DNA of 27,110 nt from a virus (lineage: Duplodnaviria; Heunggongvirae; Uroviricota; Caudoviricetes): the IMG/VR virus record IMGVR_UViG_2534681878_000029. One strand, given 5' to 3'. This document shows, one piece after another, positions 1 through 21,554 of the stretch. Under the pieces are notes generated by a model. That model saw only the letters and a program-made list of their open reading frames with translations, did not search any database and was not told the origin of the DNA. The first letter of the stretch is position 1, and each line of letters starts with the position of its first letter. Made by a program: the position numbers and the translations under genes.

Positions 1-975
1 TTACACATCATTAGTACCTTCCTTATTTTTTGACTGGGACAAATTTGGGACCGATGGGTTCAGGATCGAGTCTATTTGCCGTGCGTGTTCGGTAAGGTGA
101 TTAGGTGCAAGGTGAGCATATCGACGAACCATTTCGATAGACTCCCAGCCTCCCATTTCCTGTAACACTGACAACGGGACTCCGGCTTGAACCAGCCAAC
201 TTGCCCAGGTGTGTCTCAAGTCGTGAAATCTGAAATCATCAATACCAGCCCGTCTCAGCGCCGCTTTCCAGGCTGTGTTTGCGTCATACCGCATCTTCCT
301 TACTGTTGGCGCTTTCGTTCCGTCTGGTTTGGTACAGCTTTCCTTGTACACAAATACCCAACGGTGATGATTACCGATTTGTTTTTTCAATACGCGACAT
401 GCAGTATCATTCAGCGCAACGCCAATTGCGCGGTTTGATTTACTCTCTTCCGGGTTTATCCATGCCACCCGGCGCTGCATATCTATTTGTTGCCATTCAA
501 GGTTGATGATGTTCGAGCGTCTTAAGCCTGTTGCCAGTGCAAATTCAACAACAGACTTTAATGGCTCCGGACATTCATCAATCAGCCTTTGTGCTTCATG
601 GGGCTCCAGCCAGCGGAGCCGTTTATTCTTTGGTTGAGGCACTTTAATAATTGGTGCCTTATCGAGCATTTTCCATTCACGCTCTGCGGCTCTTAGCAGG
701 GCCTTTATAAATGAAAGATGCGTAGCCTTCGTTGCAACGGACGCTGGTTTTGGCGTGTATTCTGGAACAGGTTTCCCTTTTTTTCTGCATGCTTCTGCCC
801 TGAGTTTCCAGTTTTCCTCATGACGCCGGTTCGTCATTTTCTGCATTGCTGAATAAATTTTTGATTCAGTAATGTCTCTTAGTTGCATTCCTGCGAAATG
901 TTGAAGCCAGAATCCGATCTGCTTTCCATTGAGCCTGTTTCTCTGCGCGACGTTCGCGGCGGCGTGTTTGTGCAT
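1..975 (-). CDS. int: Tyrosine recombinase (lambdoid prophage integrase); complete ORF with stop at 1-3
   Basis: 324 aa ORF with C-terminal catalytic signature HDLRHTWAS...VRRYAHL (His-x-x-Arg and Tyr nucleophile) typical of phage integrases. Lies at the edge of the lambdoid module. The N-terminal arm-binding region may be missing or frameshifted (overlapping ORF 866-1111). Confidence 0.85.
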
Positions 976-1446
976 CCATCTGGATTCTCCTGTTAGTTAG
1001 CTTTGGTTGTGTGTGGGAGTCGTAGTCCTGAACGAAAACACCCCGCAATGGCACATTGGCTGCTAATCCGGATTCGCACTTCCGGCCAATGCTTCGTTTC
1101 GTATCACACACACCAAAGCCTTCTGCTTTGAATGCTGCCCTTCTTCAGGGCTTAATTTTTAAGAGCATCACCTTCATGGTGGTTAGTGCGTCCTGCTGAT
1201 GTGCTTAGTATCACCGCTAGTGGTATTTGTGTCAACACCGCCAGAGATAATTTATCACCGCAGATGGTTATCTGTATGTTTTTTATATAGATTTATTTTT
1301 TGCAGGGTTGTGTGGCTTGGGAGGTGATCGAGAGATCAGAATTGCGTTGTTTAGTGAGTTGCACCTATTAATTTTAAAATAAATACAATTGGTGAACCGC
1401 CCCGGGTTTCCTGGAGACTAAACTCCCTGAGAAAGAGGTAAACAGG

Positions 1447-1773
1447 ATGACTAAAAATACTCGTTTTTCCCCCGAAGTCCGTCAGCGGGCGATTCGTATG
1501 GTTCTGGAAAGTCAGGATGAATATGACTCACAGTGGGCGGCAATTTGTTCCATTGCCCCAAAGATTGGCTGTACGCCGGAGACTCTGCGTGTCTGGGTTC
1601 GCCAGCATGAGCGGGATACCGGGGGCGGTGATGGTGGGCTCACCAGCGCTGAACGTCAGCGTCTGAAAGAGCTGGAACGTGAAAATCGTGAACTGCGCCG
1701 CAGTAACGATATCCTTCGCCAGGCTTCCGCTTATTTTGCGAAGGCGGAGTTCGACCGCCTCTGGAAAAAATGA
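1447..1773 (+). CDS. IS3-family transposase OrfA (HTH/leucine-zipper part)
   Basis: 108 aa, [22 protein letters not shown]...; recognised from memory as IS629/IS1203-type OrfA. A second near-identical copy lies at 6565-6891 on the minus strand. Confidence 0.9.
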
Positions 1774-2660
1774 TGCCACTGCTGGATAAGCTGCGTGAGC
1801 AGTACGGGGTCGGACCGGTATGCAGCGAACTGCATATTGCCCCGTCAACGTATTACCATTGTCAGCAACAGCGACATCATCCGGATAAACGCAGTGCCCG
1901 TGCGCAGCACGACGACTGGCTGAAGAGAGAGATACAGCGCGTATACGATGAAAATCATCAGGTGTACGGTGTGCGTAAAGTCTGGCGTCAGTTGTTACGG
2001 GAAGGAATCAGGGTGGCCAGATGTACAGTGGCACGTCTCATGGCGGTTATGGGACTTGCCGGTGTTCTCCGGGGTAAAAAGGTCCGTACGACCATCAGCC
2101 GGAAAGCCGTTGCCGCAGGCGACCGCGTAAACCGTCAGTTCGTGGCAGAACGACCTGACCAGCTGTGGGTGGCTGATTTTACTTACGTCAGCACATGGCA
2201 GGGCTTCGTCTATGTGGCGTTTATCATTGATGTGTTTGCCGGATACATCGTGGGGTGGCGGGTCTCATCGTCTATGGAAACGACATTCGTGCTGGATGCG
2301 CTGGAGCAGGCGTTGTGGGCCCGTCGTCCGTCTGGCACCATCCATCACAGCGATAAAGGCTCTCAGTATGTGTCACTGGCCTATACGGAGCGACTAAAAG
2401 AAGCCGGATTACTGGCATCAACAGGGAGTACAGGCGACTCGTATGACAACGCGATGGCTGAGAGCATCAATGGTCTTTACAAAGCGGAGGTAATACACCG
2501 TAAGAGCTGGAAAAACCGTGCAGAAGTGGAACTGGCCACACTAACGTGGGTGGACTGGTATAACAATCGACGATTGCTGGGAAGGCTGGGCCATACTCCT
2601 CCGGCAGAAGCAGAAAAAGCTTATTATGCTTCCATCGGAAACGATGATCTGGCAGCCTGA
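1770..2660 (+). CDS. IS3-family transposase OrfB (DDE integrase-like catalytic domain)
   Basis: 296 aa, overlaps OrfA by 4 nt in the -1 frame; C-terminal portion matches the IS3/IS2 DDE transposase pattern; second copy at 5678-6568 on the minus strand. Confidence 0.9.
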
Positions 2661-2701
2661 GTTCACAGATAAAACACTCTCCAGGAAACCCGGGGCGGTT
2701 C

Positions 2702-3054
2702 AAGGCTGTTTTTCGAGTTTTTCTTAACTCTTCATGCAGCTCCGTTCTCAGAATATATGATTTTTCGAGTTTGAAATTCTTGCGACCAGGCGTCTTATTG
2801 CCAGGCTCAGGAAGTGGAAGGCGTGTTTGAATGTCGAGTGGTGGACAGTCATAGAAGTAAATTCTATAAAGCTCAAGCGGTTCCCTACGTTCTTGTGATT
2901 GACGTTTTCCATTAAGATGGGAAAGAACCATTGACCATATTACTTTCATTATGCATTGCGCAGTCAGTTCATGCTCGGCGAAGTGTTTACGATGCGTAGC
3001 ATGAACACGCTGCATGAAAAAACCCGCATCAATTAAAATTGCTGCTTTCTTCAT
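2702..3054 (-). pseudogene. cI-downstream gene of unknown function, 5' ~117 codons retained, 3' end replaced by IS629
   Basis: ORF starts 128 bp downstream of the cI stop (the position rexA occupies in lambda) with MKKAAILIDAGFF...; from residue ~118 the reading frame runs into the antisense of IS629, so the native 3' end is lost. Confidence 0.5.
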
Positions 3055-3181
3055 AAGAGTCCCAAAAAAATAGCCCAGAGCCGTTATGCAGATATTAACA
3101 ATTGTCTGCGAACGGGGCTGGGCTTGGTTTAATTAATCTATGCCAAGTTGACTGTGCCGTCAACATAAAACTTACTTCCTA

Positions 3182-3898
<717 letters not shown>

Positions 3899-3905
3899 TT
3901 AAATC

Positions 3906-3969
3906 TATCACCGCAAGGGATAAATATCTAACACCGCGCGTGTTGACTACTTTACCTCTGGCGGTGATA
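3906..3969. promoter_or_regulatory. Lambda right operator OR3-OR2-OR1 with divergent PRM/PR promoters
   Basis: OR3 TATCACCGCAAGGGATA (3906-3922), OR2 TAACACCGCGCGTGTTG (3929-3945), OR1 TACCTCTGGCGGTGATA (3953-3969). PR -35 TTGACT (3943-3948) and -10 GATAAT (3966-3971). cro SD AAGGAGG at 3985-3991. Confidence 0.9.
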
Positions 3970-3986
3970 ATGGTTGCATGTACTAA

Positions 3987-4196
<210 letters not shown>

Positions 4197-4203
4197 ATAA
4201 CCC

Positions 4204-4235
4204 CGCTCTTACACATTCCAGCCCTGAAAAAGGGC
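4204..4235 (+). promoter_or_regulatory. nutR antitermination site (boxA CGCTCTTACA, boxB hairpin GCCCTGAAAAAGGGC)
   Basis: Canonical lambda nutR boxA/boxB sequence immediately downstream of cro; boxB is a perfect 5-bp stem with a GAAAA loop. Confidence 0.8.
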
Positions 4236-4314
4236 ATCCAATTAAACCACACCTATGGTGTATGCATTTATTTGCATACATTCAATCAATTGTTATCTAA
4301 GGAAATACTTACAT

Positions 4315-4608
4315 ATGGTTCGTGCAAACAAACGCAACGAGGCTCTACGAATCGAGAGTGCGTTGCTTAACAAAATCGCAATGCTTGGAACTGAGAAGAC
4401 AGCGGAAGCTGTGGGAGTTGATAAGTCGCAGATCAGCAGGTGGAAGAGAGACTGGATTCCAAAGTTCTCAATGCTGCTTGCTGTTCTTGAATGGGGGGTC
4501 GTTGACGACGACATGGCTCGATTGGCGCGACAAGTTGCTGCGATTCTCACCAATAAAAAACGCCCGGCGGCAACCGAGCGTTCTGAACAAATCCAGATGG
4601 AGTTCTGA
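4315..4608 (+). CDS. cII: Lambda-type CII transcriptional activator
   Basis: 97 aa from the ATG at 4315 (MVRANKRNEALRIESALLNKIAMLGTEKTAEAVGVDKSQISRWKRDWIPKF...). The upstream extension in the ORF track is not used. A TTGC-N6-TTGC CII-binding motif of PRE is present antisense at ~4323-4338. Confidence 0.95.
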   Translation: MVRANKRNEALRIESALLNKIAMLGTEKTAEAVGVDKSQISRWKRDWIPKFSMLLAVLEWGVVDDDMARLARQVAAILTNKKRPAATERSEQIQMEF

Positions 4609-4640
4609 GGTCATTACTGGATCTATCAACAGGAGTCATT

Positions 4641-5563
4641 ATGACAAATACAGCAAAAATACTCAACTTCGGCAGAGGTAACTTTGCCGGACAGGAGCGT
4701 AATGTGGCAGATCTCGATGATGGTTACGCCAGACTATCAAATATGCTGCTTGAGGCTTATTCGGGCGCAGATCTGACCAAGCGACAGTTTAAAGTGCTGC
4801 TTGCCATTCTGCGTAAAACCTATGGGTGGAATAAACCAATGGACAGAATCACCGATTCTCAACTTAGCGAGATTACAAAGTTACCTGTCAAACGGTGCAA
4901 TGAAGCCAAGTTAGAACTCGTCAGAATGAATATTATCAAGCAGCAAGGCGGCATGTTTGGACCAAATAAAAACATCTCAGAATGGTGTATCCCTCAAAAC
5001 GAGGGAAAATCCCCTAAAACGAGGGATAAAACATCCCTCAAATTGGGGGATTGCTATCCCTCAAATTGGGGGATTGCTATCCCTCAAAACAGGGGGACAC
5101 AAAAGACACTATTACAAAAGAAAAAAGAAAAGATTATTCGTCCGAGAATTCTGGCGAATCCTCTGACCAGCCAGAAAACGATCTTTCTGTGGTTAAACCG
5201 GATGCTGCAATTCAGAGCGGCAGCAAGTGGGGAACAGCAGAAGACCTGACCGCCGCAGAGTGGATGTTTGACATGGTGAAGACCATCGCGCCATCAGCCA
5301 GAAAACCGAATTTTGCTGGGTGGGCTAACGATATCCGCCTGATGCGTGAACGTGACGGACGTAACCACCGCGATATGTGTGTGCTTTTCCGCTGGGCCTG
5401 CCAGGACAACTTCTGGTCCGGTAACGTGCTGAGTCCGGCCAAACTCCGCGACAAGTGGACCCAGCTCGAAATCAACCGTAACAAGCAACAGGCAGGCGTG
5501 ACAGCCAGCAAACCAAAACTCGACCTGACAAACACTGACTGGATTTACGGGGTGGATTTATGA
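4641..5563 (+). pseudogene. O: Lambda-type replication initiator O, frameshifted inside the ori iteron region
   Basis: N-terminal 140 aa in frame 0 (ORF 4641-5249) and C-terminal ~160 aa in frame +2 (ORF 5051-5563), both matching lambda O. The frame break coincides with a 23-bp tandem duplication of an iteron plus spacer. Confidence 0.8.
4989..5097 (+). repeat. ori-lambda iterons, five copies (one more than canonical), followed by an AT-rich tract
   Basis: ATCCCTCAAAACGAGGGA (4989-5006), ATCCCCTAAAACGAGGGA (5009-5026), ATCCCTCAAATTGGGGGA (5033-5050), TTGCT spacer, ATCCCTCAAATTGGGGGA (5056-5073), TTGCT spacer, ATCCCTCAAAACAGGGGGA (5079-5097); then the A-rich stretch at 5100-5135. Confidence 0.85.
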
Positions 5564-5635
5564 AAAACATCGCCGCACAGATGGTTAACTTTGACCGTGA
5601 GCAGATGCGTCGGATCGCCAACATCGATAACCAGG
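5560..5635 (+). pseudogene. P: Lambda-type P (helicase loader) 5' fragment, truncated by IS629 copy 2
   Basis: MKNIAAQMVNFDREQMRRIAN matches the lambda P N-terminus; the reading frame then enters the IS629 terminal repeat at 5636. Confidence 0.8.
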
Positions 5636-5677
5636 TGAACCGCCCCGGGTTTCCTGGAGAGTGTTTTATCTGTGAAC

Positions 5678-6568
5678 TCAGGCTGCCAGATCATCGTTTC
5701 CGATGGAAGCATAATAAGCTTTTTCTGCTTCTGCCGGAGGGATATGACCCAGCCTTCCCAGCAATCGTCGATTGTTATACCAGTCCACCCACGTGAGTGT
5801 GGCCAGTTCCACTTCTGCACGGTTTTTCCAGCTCTTACGGTGTATTACCTCCGCTTTGTAAAGACCATTGATGCTCTCCGCCATCGCGTTGTCATACGAG
5901 TCACCTGTACTCCCTGTTGATGCCAGCAGTTTTGCTTCTTTTAGTCGCTCCGTATAGGCCAGTGATACATACTGAGAACCTTTATCACTGTGATGGACTG
6001 TGCCGGACGGCCGACGGGCCCACAACGCCTGCTCCAGTGCATCCAGCACGAATGTCGTTTCCATAGACGATGAGACTCGCCACCCCACGATGTATCCGGC
6101 AAACACATCAATGATAAACGCCACATAGACGAAGCCCTGCCATGTGCTGACGTAAGTAAAATCAGCCACCCACAGCTGGTCAGGTCGTTCTGCCACGAAC
6201 TGACGGTTTACGCGGTCGCCTGCGGCAACGGCTTTCCGGCTGATGGTCGTACGGACCTTTTTACCCCGGAGAACACCGGCAAGTCCCATAACCGCCATGA
6301 GACGTGCCACTGTACATCTGGCCACCCTGATTCCTTCCCGTAACAACTGACGCCAGACTTTACGCACACCGTACACCTGATGATTTTCATCGTATACGCG
6401 CTGTATCTCTCTCTTCAGCCAGTCGTCGTGCTGCGCACGGGCACTGCGTTTATCCGGATGATGTCGCTGTTGCTGACAATGGTAATACGTTGACGGGGCA
6501 ATATGCAGTTCGCTGCATACCGGTCCGACCCCGTACTGCTCACGCAGCTTATCCAGCAGTGGCATCAT
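5678..6568 (-). CDS. IS3-family transposase OrfB (copy 2)
   Basis: 296 aa, ~99% identical to the 1770-2660 product (e.g. I192V, G212K, T278I differences). Confidence 0.9.
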
Positions 6569-6891
6569 TTTTTCCAGAGGCGGTCGAACTCCGCCTTCGC
6601 AAAATAAGCGGAAGCCTGGCGAAGGATATCGTTACTGCGGCGCAGTTCACGATTTTCACGTTCCAGCTCTTTCAGACGCTGACGTTCAGCGCTGGTGAGC
6701 CCACCATCACCGCCCCCGGTATCCCGCTCATGCTGGCGAACCCAGACACGCAGAGTCTCCGGCGTACAGCCAATCTTTGGGGCAATGGAACAAATTGCCG
6801 CCCACTGTGAGTCATATTCATCCTGACTTTCCAGAACCATACGAATCGCCCGCTGACGGACTTCGGGGGAAAAACGAGTATTTTTAGTCAT
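6565..6891 (-). CDS. IS3-family transposase OrfA (copy 2)
   Basis: C-terminal 108 aa of the 316-aa track ORF are identical to OrfA of copy 1; the ATG is at 6889-6891 (reverse strand). The upstream 208 aa of the track ORF are antisense read-through and not called. Confidence 0.9.
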
Positions 6892-6944
6892 CCTGTTTAC
6901 CTCTTTCTCAGGGAGTTTAGTCTCCAGGATTTCCGGGCGGTTCA

Positions 6945-7977
6945 AGGACATGACGATATCGGTCTGGGTCTTTCCTGATACTGATATTTCAGATGTATCG
7001 CGTGAGTTAATTGCGGCAATTAAACAGGGGTATCTAACAGTAAAAGCCGCCGGGGTATGGGCGGGGGGCATTGAAACACCTTCGGTGGAAACTCCATCGG
7101 AAGGCTCTAAATTTTTTGGTTTTGATATGGATAACGAATTCATCAGTGGTTTTGATGTAGGGGCATGGGGAGTATTACTCTGATGGCGAAAAATGACTTT
7201 AAAGCGTTTGCAACTGATCGAAATGCCAATGTTATGTCGCAGGAGGAATGGGAAGCGTTGCCTGCGCTTATATCCGGATTTACAGCAGGGAAAGCATCCA
7301 GTGCGCAAGTCAATAAGGTTATTCGGCAGGCCAGCTTTATTGCTGCAGCTCTGGCCCAGTTTGTAAGTGATAAAACGCAACGGGATGTGCTTGATAATGG
7401 TGATCTGCCCGGTTTTGTTGAATTGCTGGGATCGGGGTTTGCTGTTGAATACCTGAGCCGCAAGAATCCGTTTGGCGATATCAAATCGGACGGCACGGTG
7501 AAAACGGCTCTTCAAAACCTTGGTTTGGGAGAAGGTGCTCCAGCTATTGGCGTTCCGTTCTTCTGGCCGTCCGCTGCAATGCCAAATACTGTAATCGACA
7601 GCTGGTCCTGTATGGTGTTTTTGAAGTTCAACGGCGCGAAATTCTCTGCCACTGATTATCCTGTGCTGGCGAAAGTGTTTCCTTCGCTGGTATTACCTGA
7701 AGCCCGCGGTGATTTCATTCGTATCTGGGATGACGGGCGAGGTGCAGACGGTGGTCGCGAATTATTAAGCTGGCAGGCAGCTACAAACTTTTCTCAGTTT
7801 GCCGGGAATATAGGCGAAGGTGCGGGACACGCAATTAACTTTCATGATGGCATCGCCGGAAATCAGCCAGGATTTTCACGATTTAATTTCACCAGTAACT
7901 CTGTGGGTGATGGTGTGAATTTTGTTGCAGTCAGACCGCGAAATATTGCATTTAACTTTCTGGTGAGGGCTAAATAA
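6945..7977 (+). pseudogene. stf: Side tail fibre gene 3' remnant (C-terminal receptor-binding segment), 5' end removed at the IS629 junction
   Basis: ORF 7165-7977 (270 aa) is immediately followed by a tail-fibre assembly gene. The preceding 220 bp are open in another frame (6950-7183). No N-terminal tail-fibre shaft is present because the IS629 end is at 6944. Confidence 0.65.
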
Positions 7978-8570
7978 TGAAACCTGTTTTTGATGAAAAT
8001 GGGCTGGCTACAGTGCCGGGCGATATGCGTTGTTTTTATTATGATGCTGAAACATCTGAGTATACGGGCTGGTCTGATGAATATATTAATACTGGCGTAA
8101 GTATGCCCGCCTGTTCCACTGGTATTGACCCTGGCGAAAACATTCCGGGAAGAGTGGCAGTATTTACAGGTAAGGGATGGAGCCATGAAGAAGACCATCG
8201 CAATGAGACTGTTTACTCAATCGAAAATGGCGCAGCTGTTACAGTGGATTATATCGGTGCCATCAAAGACGGTTATGTCACGATTTCACCGTTAACGCCA
8301 TACGATAAATGGGATGGTGAGAAATGGGTGACAGACACTGAGGCACAACACAGTGCCGCAGTAGACGCGGCAGAAGCACAGCGCCAATCACTGATTGATG
8401 CAGCAATGGCTTCCATTAGTCTGATTCAGCTGAAGTTACAGGCCGGACGGAAACTGACTCAGGCAGAAACAACCCGACTTAACGCCGTGCTGGATTACAT
8501 TGACGCGGTGACGGCAACAGATACCAGCACCGCGCCGGATGTCATCTGGCCTGAACTGCCGGAGGCGTAG
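7977..8570 (+). CDS. tfa: Tail fibre assembly protein (Tfa-like chaperone)
   Basis: 197 aa; start overlaps the stf stop (TAATG). Its C-terminal motif ...LDYIDAVTATDTSTAPDVIWPELPEA has a counterpart in the convergent paralogue at 8542-8994 (...LDYLDALELVDTSGAPDIEWPTPPAVQAR). Confidence 0.85.
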   Translation: MKPVFDENGLATVPGDMRCFYYDAETSEYTGWSDEYINTGVSMPACSTGIDPGENIPGRVAVFTGKGWSHEEDHRNETVYSIENGAAVTVDYIGAIKDGYVTISPLTPYDKWDGEKWVTDTEAQHSAAVDAAEAQRQSLIDAAMASISLIQLKLQAGRKLTQAETTRLNAVLDYIDAVTATDTSTAPDVIWPELPEA

Positions 8571-8994
8571 GCCATTCAATATCTGGCGCACCGGAAGTAT
8601 CGACCAGCTCCAGTGCGTCCAGATAATCCAGCCACAAATTATATTGCGTCAGTTCGTCACCTTTCAGACGACCAATAGCCGCTTTACCGGGCCATTGCTT
8701 ACTGTTCATGTATTCGTTGGCCTGGTTAATTAGTAGCTGTCTTTCTGATTCAGTAATTTCAATAAGCTCTTCATGCGTGGGTGGAGGAATATCTGCCCAC
8801 GCAGGCAGCCCATCATCTCCGGCAATACGGATTTTTCCTTGTGGCGGTTCAGCCATAAACTCACTGATAATATTTTGATTTACTTCCTTAGCGTCTGATA
8901 AATCCCATCCCTCTGATTTATATTTATCAATCATATCCACAGGGAAAAAAGCATTATGCCTTGCGCTATAAACATATTCGTCCATATAAATCAC
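8542..8994 (-). CDS. Alternative tail fibre assembly protein (inverted-orientation paralogue)
   Basis: 150 aa, convergent with tfa and overlapping its 3' end; shares the C-terminal Tfa motif. This arrangement is typical of Pin/Gin/Cin invertible host-range cassettes. Confidence 0.8.
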   Translation of the reverse strand: MIYMDEYVYSARHNAFFPVDMIDKYKSEGWDLSDAKEVNQNIISEFMAEPPQGKIRIAGDDGLPAWADIPPPTHEELIEITESERQLLINQANEYMNSKQWPGKAAIGRLKGDELTQYNLWLDYLDALELVDTSGAPDIEWPTPPAVQAR

Positions 8995-9005
8995 CCTGAA
9001 TAAAA

Positions 9006-9419
9006 TTACTCACCAACAGCCCACCAACTGTAATTCATCGATACCGTGTCGCTGGTTGATGACGTTCTGTAAGCAGAATTAAAGCCGGTTAACGTTGGGC
9101 CTTCTGCAGTCATCACGAACCCTCGCCCAGCGCCTAAAGGCGCACCGCCATCACCAGAATGAGTAAGCATGGCGCAGTCCGCTTTTTTGGGGAAAGGGAT
9201 GCTGAATGTAATTCTCATTGTTTGCGTCGATAATGTCGGCGTAACCGCACCACGACCATATTGCAGGATTTTCCCGTTGGGTAATTTCATCCATCCATTA
9301 CCACTGGCAAAAGAGGCCATGTCCGGTATCTGATTTTCCCCTGTCCCCACATCCCGTTTTGCCGCTTCTCCCAAACCAACGTTTATGAAAATGCAGAAAT
9401 AACGAGCAAATGGCATCAT
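9006..9419 (-). CDS. Alternative tail fibre C-terminal cassette (silent orientation, no independent promoter expected)
   Basis: 137 aa ORF ending just upstream of the alternative tfa; Gly/Ser/Thr-rich like fibre tips; its 5' end overlaps the candidate crossover site at 9364-9389. Confidence 0.55.
   Translation of the reverse strand: MMPFARYFCIFINVGLGEAAKRDVGTGENQIPDMASFASGNGWMKLPNGKILQYGRGAVTPTLSTQTMRITFSIPFPKKADCAMLTHSGDGGAPLGAGRGFVMTAEGPTLTGFNSAYRTSSTSDTVSMNYSWWAVGE
9364..9389. promoter_or_regulatory. Candidate invertase crossover site (gix/pix-like 26-bp site)
   Basis: TTCTCCCAAACCAACGTTTATGAAAA fits the dyad pattern TTnnCnnAAACC-nn-GGTTTnnGnnAA known for Gin/Hin/Pin sites and lies just upstream of pin. 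I could not unambiguously locate the partner site. Confidence 0.45.
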
Positions 9420-9445
9420 TCCTGCTTTTGTCAGGGAGATCTACC

Positions 9446-10000
9446 ATGCTTATTGGCTATGTACGTGTGTCAACAAATGACCAGAACACAGATCTACAAC
9501 GTAATGCGCTGAACTGTGCAGGATGCGAGCTGATTTTTGAAGACAAGATAAGCGGTACAAAGTCCGAAAGGCCGGGACTGAAAAAACTGCTCAGGACATT
9601 ATCGGCAGGTGACACTCTGGTTGTCTGGAAACTGGATCGGCTGGGGCGCAGTATGCGGCATCTGGTCATTCTGGTTGAGGAGTTGCGCGAACGTGGCGTT
9701 AATTTTCGCAGCCTGACGGATGCTATTGATACCAGTACCCCAATGGGGCGCTTTTTCTTTCATGTGATGGGGGCCCTGGCTGAAATGGAACGAGAACTGA
9801 TTGTTGAACGAACAAAAGCTGGACTGGAAGCTGCTCGCGCACAGGGACGAATTGGTGGACGTCGTCCCAAACTTACACCAGAACAATGGGCGCAGGCCGG
9901 ACGATTAATTGCAGCAGGAATTCCTCGCCAGAAGGTAGCGATCATCTATGATGTTGGTGTATCGACACTGTATAAGAAGTTTCCGGCCGGAGATAAATGA
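9446..10000 (+). CDS. pin: Serine DNA invertase of the Pin/Gin/Hin family
   Basis: 184 aa from the ATG at 9446 (SD AGGGAG at 9434-9439): MLIGYVRVSTNDQNTDLQRNAL...VVWKLDRLGRSM...GRIGGRRPKL...; resolvase N-domain with catalytic Ser and C-terminal HTH. Confidence 0.9.
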   Translation: MLIGYVRVSTNDQNTDLQRNALNCAGCELIFEDKISGTKSERPGLKKLLRTLSAGDTLVVWKLDRLGRSMRHLVILVEELRERGVNFRSLTDAIDTSTPMGRFFFHVMGALAEMERELIVERTKAGLEAARAQGRIGGRRPKLTPEQWAQAGRLIAAGIPRQKVAIIYDVGVSTLYKKFPAGDK

Positions 10001-11072: not shown

Positions 11073-11654
11073 CTTTATCAATGACTTATCTCCCGACTTC
11101 CCGTCTTGCTTTTCCTAAACAGAACAATCGTAGAATATTCTTGAAGGGTTAGATCGTCACTGTTTTCTGTTCGATACTGTGACATTCAGCACTTGATTCG
11201 CTATGGATCTGACAGGAAGGTTTTGAGCGAAAATCTGCAGTTATTCAGTCGTTTTCTTATCGGTCACCATTATTCTTTTAGACATTGATCCTACAAAGCT
11301 GCCGTAAAGTTGGTGGTGGGAACTGAAGTTGCGTAGAGAAGGGGTCAATACCCGGAGGCAAACATGGGCTGGCAAAAGTGTAGCGGTATTAGGCGCAGCT
11401 ATTTAGCCTAGTTATGTTTTATGAAAACTTGATATCATATAAGTGTCTTACTTATTGGCTGTAAATAAGTTTTTCCTAAGGAATTGTTTCTTGAGTATCA
11501 TTTGTAACTGTAACGGAATTTATAATCCTTTGCTTTATTGTTACGGTATTTTTTATCACACCCTATTTTTAGTGGTTTTTTATACTGAAGTTTGGCAAAG
11601 TGAACTTTATATACATATACTTCATCCTGGTTTCAGTTAAATTGGGGGGATGAT

Positions 11655-21004: not shown

Positions 21005-21554
21005 TGATACCTGCATACATTAAATACCTTTATTCTGGCTTGCTTACTGTCGTCATTTCCAGGTATAGTTTTTCCGCTGTCGCAAAATCGGCAGCCGGAA
21101 TTGGCGTTCCGTATAACTTATTGGCGACAATTGACGCCCCTTGCGTCTTTTTTTACGTCGTAGCTCAGGCACAACCATTTTCAGGGCTGTGGTGTTTATG
21201 CTTACACCATGGTTCTATCGAGATAATGGTAGTCCGGGCGGGGCAGCCTTCGGGCTGGCCGGTTTCCAATAAGGCCGGTTACGCCAACCCCGTTCGGGCT
21301 GCCACCAGTGAAATTGGCGTTTCCGGTGGTAGCAATAACCGCTACTTATTGGAGGCTGCCATCATGGCTACAATCCTCACCCCGTCACACCCGCAATATG
21401 TCTTTGTGTTTGCCGCAATCCGCCGTGCTGACACTCACCCCCGCATCTGTATGCTTCGCACTGTCTCCTGCGATGAGCGTTCCGCGCGCCGTTTGCTAGT
21501 CCGAGATTATGTACTCTCCCTTTCTGCACGGCTGCCTGCCGGGGAGGTGACGCT

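What the first reader, a model, noticed from the sequence alone, without database searches (positions are those of the whole stretch)
1393..6944. Two inverted IS629 copies bracket the immunity region and mark two large deletions of the lambdoid prophage
Copy 1 joins the int-proximal region directly to the cI-downstream gene, so xis, the recombination genes and N are missing. Copy 2 joins the 5' end of P directly to the 3' end of stf, so nin, Q, lysis, head and most tail genes are missing. The flanks of each copy come from non-contiguous prophage positions, and I see no clear matching target duplications. This fits IS-mediated adjacent deletions or recombination between IS copies. The inverted pair can also invert the intervening cI-cro-cII-O segment by homologous recombination. 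Copy 1 has perfectly matching 25-bp terminal repeats, whereas copy 2 has a divergent OrfA-side repeat.
Basis: partly seen in the sequence, partly recalled or inferred. Interest (0 to 1): 0.5.

Follow-up and report, generated by a model that had tools for sequence, protein, structure and literature searches.

The report
Two IS629 insertions in prophage Sp1
Two copies of the common E. coli O157:H7 jumping gene IS629 sit in opposite orientation around the repressor region of the decayed prophage Sp1. They did not cause the prophage's two big deletions, so this is ordinary, already documented insertion-sequence variation.

Summary
The two inverted IS629 copies are real: 1393-2702 on the + strand (1310 bp) and 5636-6944 on the - strand (1309 bp). 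The window is the thrW-linked cryptic prophage Sp1/CP-933H of E. coli O157:H7, 100% identical to Sakai outside the IS copies.

The headline interpretation fails.
- Sakai and EDL933 carry both large deletion junctions with no IS at all.
- The int'::N' junction lies at 918/919, 474 bp left of copy 1. N codons 1-20, nutL, pL and oL1-3 sit between them.
- The P' junction lies at 5623/5624, 12 bp left of copy 2. It joins P codon 21 to the last 82 codons of a myovirus DUF2612 baseplate-type gene, not to stf.
- Copy 2 is a simple insertion with a 3-bp AGG duplication. Its site is empty in all 5,426 complete E. coli genomes searched.
- Copy 1 has no duplication (TGG/AGG). It marks only a 571-bp deletion inside a NYN-domain gene in the rex position, at a known polymorphic IS629 site with at least six allelic states.
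- Copy 1's perfect terminal repeat is the derived, minority form. Copy 2's OrfA-side end is canonical apart from one missing C.

Inversion of 2703-5635 between the copies is plausible but untested.

The parts
1..918 (-). Truncated integrase gene (int', N-terminus missing) next to thrW
   Evidence: Phage_integrase domain, E=2.4e-47. RefSeq relatives annotate it as incomplete, missing the N-terminus.
918..919 (.). IS-free junction int'::N'. This is the large left deletion: xis, exo, bet, gam, kil, cIII, ral and most of N.
   Evidence: Homology to the intact O121:H19 prophage starts at window 919 = N nucleotide 61. The same junction is present in Sakai and EDL933, which have no IS here.
919..979 (-). 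N' : the first 20 codons of antiterminator N ([20 protein letters not shown])
   Evidence: Pfam N36, E=3.1e-9. Coordinates.
1134..1166 (-). nutL (boxA/boxB)
   Evidence: Exact match to GCTCTTAAAAATTAAGCCCTGAAGAAGGGCAGC. That this string is lambda nutL rests on my own knowledge.
1209..1270 (+). oL1-oL3 operators with pL
   Evidence: TATCACCGC occurs at 1209 and 1253, and at oR (3906, 3961); 4 matches against 0.16 expected by chance. Sequence read.
1393..2702 (+). IS629 copy 1, 1310 bp. IRL 1393-1417 has the GTT tip; IRR is 2678-2702; orfA 1447-1773; orfB 1770-2660; ALIL pseudoknot 1728-1844. Flanks are TGG|...|AGG, so there is no target duplication.
   Evidence: It is identical to the copy in strains 155 and FDAARGOS_293. 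The same insertion occurs in 35 genomes.
2703..3054 (-). 5' part of a NYN-domain gene in the rex position. It is cut at 2703 by the 571-bp deletion that copy 1 marks.
   Evidence: NYN domain in the full-length relative. Native sequence. Alignment window 2702-5623 = L007 6649-9547.
3182..3895 (-). cI repressor (lambda immunity type)
   Evidence: HTH_3 and Peptidase_S24 domains. The protein is identical across all Sp1 relatives.
3996..4608 (+). cro (3996-4196) and cII (4315-4608)
   Evidence: ORFs; annotations.
4641..5563 (+). Replication gene O, frameshifted by an extra 23-bp ori iteron (5033-5055 repeated at 5056-5078)
   Evidence: It is a pseudogene in all Sp1 relatives.
5560..5623 (+). P' : the first 21 codons of replication gene P
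   Evidence: Homology to intact P ends at window 5623.
5623..5624 (.). IS-free junction P'::DUF2612'. This is the large right deletion, 12 bp left of copy 2.
   Evidence: Sakai positions 5382/5383 split between P (L007) and the DUF2612 gene of phage vB_EcoM-611R5. The junction is present without an IS in Sakai, EDL933, 155, EC4115 and DEC4E.
5633..5635 (.). Left copy of the AGG target duplication of copy 2
5636..6944 (-). IS629 copy 2, 1309 bp. IRR is at 5636-5660. IRL is at 6921-6944 with one C missing. orfB 5678-6568; orfA 6565-6891; ALIL pseudoknot 6494-6610. It has 20 substitutions clustered at IS positions 869-1205.
   Evidence: This minor subtype is 100% identical only in FDAARGOS_293 and three other strains. 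No complete genome has an IS at this site.
6945..6947 (.). Right copy of the AGG target duplication of copy 2
6945..7183 (+). 3' end of a DUF2612 (baseplate-type) gene. Together with 5624-5635 it encodes the last 82 of 226 codons.
   Evidence: Pfam DUF2612, below the curated cut-off. tblastn gives 98.8% identity over 82 aa to Escherichia myoviruses, plus matches to SEN34. Gene context; DNA alignment.
7183..7977 (+). Complete tail-fibre gene, followed by tfa and the Pin-invertible segment (pin at 9446-10000)
   Evidence: Annotations. Same gene length and order as in vB_EcoM-611R5. Caudo_TAP domain in the tfa gene.

Best explanation
The region is the immunity core of the cryptic prophage Sp1/CP-933H at thrW in E. 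coli O157:H7, carrying two independent IS629 (IS3-family) insertions.

The two large deletions, int'::N' at 918/919 and P'::DUF2612' at 5623/5624, are older and IS-free. They are shared by all Sp1 alleles examined (shown).

Copy 2 (5636-6944) is a recent, strain-specific, ordinary copy-out/paste-in insertion of a minor IS629 subtype. It landed in the DUF2612 remnant and made a 3-bp AGG duplication (shown).

Copy 1 (1393-2702) occupies a long-standing polymorphic IS629 site just beyond oL.
- The earliest recoverable state is an IS629 in the opposite orientation, with a TTA duplication, downstream of an undeleted NYN-domain gene (strain 472) (shown).
- From that state, lineages carry different IS-associated scars (shown).
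  - EC4115 has a 566-bp deletion starting 5 bp from the IS.
  - Strain 147 has precise excision.
  - DEC4E has excision plus a 156-bp deletion at a TTG microhomology.
  - The window/155/Z570 type has an IS in + orientation abutting CAATTGG and native AGGC, with 571 bp lost and both TTA copies gone.
  - Sakai/EDL933 have that type minus the IS and AGGC, joined at a TG microhomology.
- These scars fit transposase-dependent events with microhomology end joining, promoted by the IS-excision enhancer IEE (inferred).
- The + copy most likely arose as a second, inverted copy inserted at AGG. The old copy and the spacer were then lost (inferred; the intermediate was not found).
- The perfect inverted repeat of copy 1 arose later in situ, by conversion of IRL positions 14-16 from AAA to GTT (shown as a state change; mechanism inferred).

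The inverted pair can in principle invert 2703-5635 by homologous recombination. The window is in the same orientation as Sakai.
For: - Identity of the locus: the window matches Sakai at 100% over 1-1394 and 2707-5635, and at 99.985% over 6945-27110. It lies next to tRNA-Thr thrW.
- IS-free large junctions: Sakai and EDL933. N', nutL and oL lie left of copy 1.
- Copy 2: AGG|IS|AGG against a single AGG in five relatives. No complete genome has an IS there. The subtype is rare.
- Duplication control: 6 of the 8 IS629 insertions in the fetched loci have perfect 3-bp duplications.
- Copy-1 allelic series.
  - Five genomes have the undeleted NYN gene region with IS(-).
  - 35 genomes have IS(+).
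  - 108 genomes are IS-free.
- Polarity: AGGC is native sequence, retained in the window type and absent from Sakai. SNP 618G groups window, 155, Z570, FDAARGOS_293, Sakai and EDL933. SNPs 618T and 3949G link strain 147 to EC4115.
- IR tip: 33 of the 35 genomes with the same insertion match the 300-nt junction query at 99.0% (3 mismatches), and Z570, the one fetched, has IRL ...AAA.... Only 155, FDAARGOS_293 and the window have GTT.
- Literature: IS.29 in Sp1 is listed as polymorphic (PMC3271280). [quoted passage not shown]
Against: - The route from the strain-472 state to the window's + oriented copy is not shown. The predicted intermediate, IS(+) at AGG in an undeleted NYN gene region, was absent from all 5,426 complete genomes.
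- One SNP (4499G, shared by 155 and 472) conflicts with the 618 split, so the small SNP tree is not clean.
- IEE involvement is inferred from the form of the scars and from the literature. The iee gene was not looked for in the source strain, and it lies outside the window.
- The single missing C in copy 2's IRL could be a homopolymer sequencing error.
Confidence: 0.85

Rival explanations
1. First reader's model. Each IS629 copy created the large deletion beside it. Copy 1 removed xis-N and copy 2 removed P-tail, either by IS-mediated adjacent deletion or by recombination between IS copies.
For: Copy 1 lacks a target duplication and its flanks are non-contiguous in intact relatives. IS629-associated deletions do occur in Sp1: in FDAARGOS_293 an IS joins O to pin with no duplication.
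Against: Both large junctions exist without any IS in Sakai and EDL933. They lie 474 bp and 12 bp from the IS ends. Copy 2 has an AGG duplication and an empty site in every other genome. Strain 472 has an IS629 with a TTA duplication in an Sp1 whose large deletions are already present.
Confidence: 0.03
2. Alternative origin of copy 1. An IS629 inserted in + orientation at AGG in an Sp1 that had an undeleted NYN gene region and no resident IS. Its IRL end then transposed intramolecularly into TGG, next to the TTA hot spot. This deleted 571 bp in one adjacent-deletion step, independently of the (-) copy seen in strain 472 and EC4115.
For: The right flank AGGCTG is native, and the flanks TGG/AGG fit an adjacent deletion. 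The same few bases were hit by IS629 in the other lineage, which argues for a regional hot spot.
Against: It needs a second, independent deletion whose two endpoints fall within 5 bp and 2 bp of those in the EC4115 lineage. No genome has IS(+) at AGG in an undeleted NYN gene region, and no IS-free Sp1 with an undeleted NYN gene region was seen.
Confidence: 0.3
3. The pair is a composite transposon that moved the cI-cro-cII-O module here as a unit, or the second copy is an assembly artefact.
For: Two inverted IS copies flanking a 2.9-kb segment is the architecture of a composite transposon.
Against: The segment and its flanks are collinear and 100% identical with IS-free Sakai. The outer flanks TGG and AGG do not match. 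Each copy has its own history in relatives. Copy 2 carries 20 private substitutions and exact junctions with a duplication, which a collapsed or misplaced repeat would not give.
Confidence: 0.02

Closest known systems
IS629 / IS1203 (IS3 family) of E. coli O157:H7 and Shigella
   Same: 1310 bp. OrfA (HTH) and OrfB (DDE, rve) with a -1 frameshift and the ALIL pseudoknot. TG...CA ends and 3-bp target duplications. Copy 1 differs from other O157 copies only at 3 tip positions. RefSeq annotates the homologues as 'IS3-like element IS1203 family transposase'.
   Different: Copy 1 has a perfect 25-nt inverted repeat (IRL tip GTT), a minority variant: best match >=99% in 220 of 5,737 records. Copy 2 is a minor mosaic subtype with one base missing in IRL.
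Cryptic prophage Sp1 (Sakai) / CP-933H (EDL933) at thrW
   Same: Same locus, same gene order and same two large deletion junctions. 100% identity outside the IS copies.
   Different: Sakai and EDL933 have no IS629 in this part of Sp1 and lack the 4 bp AGGC. The window carries two IS copies. The copy-2 site is unoccupied in all 5,426 complete genomes.
Polymorphic IS629 site 'IS.29, Sp 1' (Rump et al. 2011, PMC3271280)
   Same: An IS629 in Sp1 that is present in EC4115 and TW14359 and absent in Sakai and EDL933. Sp1 itself is found only in the A6 clonal complex. This matches the copy-1 site seen here.
   Different: In EC4115 the IS lies in the opposite orientation with a TTA duplication. In the window it is + oriented, without a duplication and 3 bp offset on each side.
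IEE-promoted IS629 excision with microhomology-joined flanking deletions (Kusumoto 2011 as cited in PMC9943667)
   Same: The IS-free alleles are joined at short microhomologies (TG in Sakai, TTG in DEC4E). Deletions run from 4 to 156 bp and start at or near the IS position. One allele (strain 147) shows precise excision.
   Different: Nothing was tested experimentally here, and the orientation switch of the resident IS is not among the outcomes quoted from that paper (only passages were read).
IS-flanked invertible segments and composite transposons (Tn5/Tn10-type architecture)
   Same: Inverted 1.3-kb repeats at 98% identity, 2,933 bp apart, a substrate for RecA-dependent inversion.
   Different: No inversion isomer and no transposition of the unit has been observed. 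The arrangement arose stepwise in situ.

Membership tests
IS3 family, IS629/IS1203 | Length about 1.3 kb and near-identity to named IS629/IS1203 copies | tested here: met
   1310 and 1309 bp. Copy 1 differs at 3 of 1310 positions from the EC4115 copy annotated as IS1203 family. Copy 2 differs from it at 21.
IS3 family, IS629/IS1203 | Two overlapping ORFs (OrfA HTH, OrfB DDE/rve) with a programmed -1 frameshift signal | tested here: met
   HTH_Tnp_1, E=2.4e-12; rve, E=9e-28 and 1e-26. ALIL pseudoknot, 121.5 bits, in both copies.
IS3 family, IS629/IS1203 | Terminal inverted repeats ending 5'-TG...CA-3' | tested here: met
   Both copies start TGAACC and end GGTTCA. Copy 2's IRL lacks one C.
IS3 family, IS629/IS1203 | 3-bp target-site duplication on simple insertion | tested here: met
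   Copy 2 has AGG/AGG with a single AGG at empty sites. Copy 1 has TGG/AGG, which is not met, and is explained by the adjacent 571-bp deletion. 6 of the 8 control insertions have perfect duplications.
IS3 family, IS629/IS1203 | Transposition activity (circle formation, mobility) | not testable with these tools
   Activity is only implied by the polymorphic sites among strains.
Lambda-type immunity region (prophage Sp1/CP-933H) | cI (HTH + S24), cro, cII, O, P' and the oL/oR operators in lambda order | tested here: met
   Collinear with the intact O121:H19 prophage at 98.4%.
   The junctions at 918/919 and 5623/5624 lie 474 and 12 bp from the IS ends. They occur IS-free in Sakai and EDL933.
Composite transposon | Target duplication flanking the whole IS-segment-IS unit, or the unit found at another locus | tested here: not met
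   The outer flanks are TGG and AGG. The segment is in its native Sp1 context.
IS-flanked invertible segment | Both orientations of the bracketed segment observed | not testable with these tools
   No other complete genome has copy 2. The window has the Sakai orientation. Reads from the source strain would be needed.

The most novel reading that the evidence does not exclude
The copy-1 site may record a reaction of IS3-family elements that is not described in what I read. A resident IS629 was replaced in place by a copy in the opposite orientation, with loss of both 3-bp duplications and of the adjacent 571 bp. Its IRL tip was later homogenised in situ to the IRR sequence. If this was a single transposase/IEE-dependent event, rather than two ordinary steps (inverted duplication, then deletion), it would be a new outcome of copy-out/paste-in transposition.
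Probability: 0.08. Interest if true: 0.45.

Novelty: already known. Interest (0 to 1): 0.15.

Why it matters
It matters little beyond strain typing.
- IS629 insertion polymorphism in O157:H7 prophages, including one site in Sp1, is documented and is used for subtyping.
- Copy 2 is a private marker of the source strain's lineage, whose closest relative is FDAARGOS_293.
- The useful corrections are these:
  - Sp1's large deletions predate the IS copies and are independent of them.
  - pL, oL and N' survive left of copy 1.
  - The right-hand module is a myovirus baseplate, tail-fibre and Pin cassette rather than lambda stf.
- The six-state allelic series at the copy-1 site is a neat natural record of IS629 insertion, excision and microhomology-joined deletion. 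It could serve as a test bed for IEE models.

Tried and rejected
1. In-place flip of the resident IS by recombination between its own 25-nt inverted repeats. This predicts that both TTA duplications are kept. The window type has lost both, and its right flank is native AGGC rather than EC4115's TGGC.
2. The window type derived from the EC4115 or strain-147 allele. Rejected because the window keeps the native A of AGGC, which those alleles lack. They in turn keep native TTATG, which the window lacks.
3. The Sakai-type IS-free site as the ancestral empty site. Rejected because the window type carries 4 native bases (AGGC) that are absent from Sakai.
4. Copy 1 as a fresh transposition of a GTT-tip copy such as the pO157 one. 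Rejected because 33 genomes have the identical insertion with the canonical tip.
5. Search for the predicted intermediate, IS(+) at AGG in an undeleted NYN gene region. None was found.
6. Search for any genome with copy 2 in place or with the inverted isomer. None was found.
7. Literature search for the IR sequence string. It returned only IS6110 papers.
8. Reading 6945-7183 as a 'phage replication protein' fragment, as RefSeq annotates it. Rejected in favour of the DUF2612 3' end.

Full report
**What is there.** The repeat finder reports a single inverted pair in the 27-kb window, 1401-2702 and 5636-6937, 1302 nt at 98%. Reading the ends gives copy 1 = 1393-2702 (+, 1310 bp) and copy 2 = 5636-6944 (-, 1309 bp). 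Each copy has orfA (HTH_Tnp_1) and orfB (rve DDE), the ALIL frameshift pseudoknot and TG...CA ends. RefSeq relatives annotate the same element as 'IS3-like element IS1203 family transposase'. The IS identification and the inverted arrangement around cI-cro-cII-O are confirmed.

**Where the window comes from.** The window is the thrW-adjacent cryptic prophage Sp1 (Sakai) / CP-933H (EDL933) of E. coli O157:H7, followed by Sp2.
- Outside the two IS copies it matches Sakai at 100% over 1-1394 and 2707-5635.
- It differs from Sakai at 3 of 20,166 positions over 6945-27110.
- Sakai and EDL933 have no IS629 anywhere in this part of Sp1.

**The two large deletions are not at the IS copies.** I aligned the window to an intact lambda-immunity prophage of O121:H19 strain 16-9255, which has the same cI, cro and cII proteins.
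- Window 919-1393 matches L007 5603-6077, and window 2702-5623 matches L007 6649-9547.
- The left block starts at nucleotide 61 of N. The window therefore keeps N codons 1-20 (979-920, Pfam N36), nutL (1134-1166) and oL1-3 with pL (1209-1270).
- The deletion that removed xis to most of N is the int'::N' junction at 918/919, 474 bp left of copy 1.
- On the right, homology to P stops at 5623 (codon 21).
- From 5624 the sequence is the last 82 codons of a 226-codon DUF2612 gene. In Escherichia myovirus vB_EcoM-611R5 and in SEN34-like phages this gene lies between a baseplate-J gene and the tail-fibre gene.
- That junction is 12 bp left of copy 2.
- It is followed by a complete tail-fibre gene (7183-7977), tfa genes and a Pin-invertible segment.
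- Both junctions are present, IS-free, in Sakai, EDL933, strain 155, EC4115 and DEC4E.

**Copy 2 is a simple, recent insertion.**
- The window reads ...GATAACCAGG|IS|AGGACATG..., whereas strain 155 and Sakai read ...GATAACCAGGACATG.... This is a 3-bp AGG duplication.
- As a control, 6 of the 8 IS629 insertions in the fetched loci have perfect 3-bp duplications: TTA in three, plus GTG, CAG and AGG.
- No complete E. coli genome among 5,426 has an IS at this site.
- Copy 2 is a minor subtype. It has 20 substitutions clustered at IS positions 869-1205, giving 3 amino-acid changes in OrfB, and one C missing in IRL.
- The variable block is 100% identical only in FDAARGOS_293 (chromosome and two plasmids), 7.1_Anguil, Balcarce_24.2 and PK8241.

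**Copy 1 sits at a small deletion at a known polymorphic site.** Its flanks are CAATTGG|IS|AGGCTG, with no duplication (TGG against AGG). In intact relatives these flanks are 571 bp apart. The missing stretch is the 3' two-thirds of a NYN-domain gene that occupies the rex position between oL and cI. Comparison of Sp1 alleles gives a series of six states:

| State | Sequence at the site (+ strand) | Where seen |
|---|---|---|
| (i) IS(-), NYN gene region undeleted | CAATTGG TTA[IS-]TTA TGTG...577 bp...CTTA AGGC TG, a clean insertion | strain 472 and four other genomes |
| (ii) EC4115 type | CAATTGG TTA[IS-]TTA TG\|GC TG, state (i) plus a 566-bp deletion starting 5 bp from the IS | EC4115, TW14359, F690 |
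| (iii) Precise excision of (ii) | CAATTGGTTATGGCTG; shares SNPs 618T and 3949G with EC4115 | strain 147 |
| (iv) IS-free, 156-bp deletion | CAATTG\|CCTTTTT, joined at a TTG microhomology | DEC4E |
| (v) Window type | CAATTGG[IS+]AGGC TG | 35 genomes, including 155, Z570, FDAARGOS_293 |
| (vi) IS-free, Sakai type | CAATTGG TG; state (v) minus IS and AGGC, joined at a TG microhomology | Sakai, EDL933; about 100 of 108 IS-free genomes |

- AGGC is native sequence, so state (vi) must derive from a state like (v) and not the reverse.
- SNP 618G groups the window, 155, Z570, FDAARGOS_293, Sakai and EDL933.
- Rump et al. list this site as 'IS.29, Sp 1': present in EC4115 and TW14359, absent in Sakai and EDL933.

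**How the + oriented copy 1 arose is not settled.**
- A flip by recombination between the element's own inverted repeats is excluded, because both TTA copies are gone and the right flank is native AGGC.
- The simplest routes both pass through a (+) insertion at AGG followed by an adjacent deletion to TGG. In one route the old (-) copy is lost together with the spacer. In the other, the lineage never had the (-) copy.
- The predicted intermediate was not found in any complete genome.
- I give the first route about 0.5 and the second about 0.3.

**The terminal repeats.**
- Most IS629 copies have IRL TGAACCGCCCCGGAAATCCTGGAGA and IRR TGAACCGCCCCGGGTTTCCTGGAGA.
- In one search, the best match to copy 1's 80-nt end is 95-99% in 5,194 records and >=99% in only 220.
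- Of the 35 genomes with the same (+) insertion, 33 match the junction at 99.0% (3 mismatches); Z570, the one fetched, has the canonical AAA tip. Only 155, FDAARGOS_293 and the window have GTT.
- Copy 1's perfect repeat is therefore a derived three-base conversion that happened in place.
- Copy 2's 'divergent' end is the canonical IRL minus one C. That missing base is either a real mutation of the end or a homopolymer error.

**Inversion.** The pair, 1.3 kb at 98% identity and 2,933 bp apart, is a plausible RecA substrate. The window has the Sakai orientation. No other genome carries copy 2, so the isomer cannot be assessed here. pL and oL lie outside the bracket.

**Verdict.** This is ordinary, documented IS629 polymorphism in a decayed prophage. 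One copy is a private simple insertion. The other is a resident copy at a hot spot that marks a 0.57-kb deletion, not a multi-kilobase one.

Noticed in passing
window 5033-5078: The O gene carries a tandem duplication of a 23-bp ori iteron unit (ATCCCTCAAATTGGGGGATTGCT). This gives one more iteron than the intact relative and frameshifts O. It is shared by all Sp1 alleles.
   Followed up: partly
window 1390-1392 / 2703-2706, with L002, L005, L008, L011, L014, L003: There are six allelic states of one IS629 site in Sp1 among O157:H7 genomes. They include an orientation switch of the resident IS with loss of both 3-bp duplications. The route between the (-) and (+) states is unexplained, and the predicted intermediate was not found.
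   Followed up: yes
window 1406-1408 (IS positions 14-16): The IRL tip changed from AAA to GTT in place, making a perfect 25-nt inverted repeat. This occurs in 155, FDAARGOS_293 and the window, but not in 33 other genomes with the same insertion. GTT-tip copies also occur on pO157 and in O111/O26-type strains. A DEC4E copy has a further IRR variant, GGTTTT.
   Followed up: partly
window 6934-6937: The C-run in copy 2's IRL is CCC instead of CCCC. This could disable that end or could be a homopolymer sequencing error. The FDAARGOS_293 copy of the same subtype has CCCC.
   Followed up: no
L012 11205-12514 (FDAARGOS_293), equivalent to window 5446 to 9600: In the closest relative, an IS629 of the copy-2 subtype in + orientation joins O (about nucleotide 806) to pin, with no target duplication (CTC/TAT). 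This is a genuine IS-associated deletion of about 4.1 kb that removed P', DUF2612', the tail-fibre genes and the pin 5' end.
   Followed up: partly
L008 7341-10426 (DEC4E): DEC4E's Sp1 has a different pair of inverted IS629 copies, with duplications GTG and CAG, bracketing a 466-bp segment. One copy interrupts pin. The bracketed segment is not inverted relative to the window.
   Followed up: partly
window 2703-3054; L007 6144-7001; L014 2621-3544: A NYN-domain (PIN-like) gene occupies the rexAB position between oL and cI in this lambda-immunity phage group. Even the 'undeleted' copies are annotated in two pieces, and the strain 472 copy contains stops or a frameshift.
   Followed up: partly
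window 7183-10000: An e14/Mu-like invertible tail-fibre cassette: a constant tail-fibre gene, two oppositely oriented tfa genes, an alternative fibre C-terminus (gp53-like) and the pin invertase at 9446-10000. It derives from a myovirus module fused to the lambda early region.
   Followed up: no
window 21076-21309: isrK (71.9 bits) and C4 antisense RNA (84 bits) lie side by side in the P4-like prophage Sp2.
   Followed up: no
window 973-975 / 919-979: The 324-codon 'int' ORF starts at an ATG that lies inside the retained N' fragment, read in another frame. The apparent start of int is therefore a by-product of the int'::N' fusion.
   Followed up: no
window 4499, 618, 3949, 11305, 21640, 23184: SNP 4499 (in cII) is shared by strains 155 and 472 but not by the window. 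This conflicts with the 618 split and points to homoplasy or recombination. Three T/C differences from Sakai lie at 11305, 21640 and 23184.
   Followed up: no
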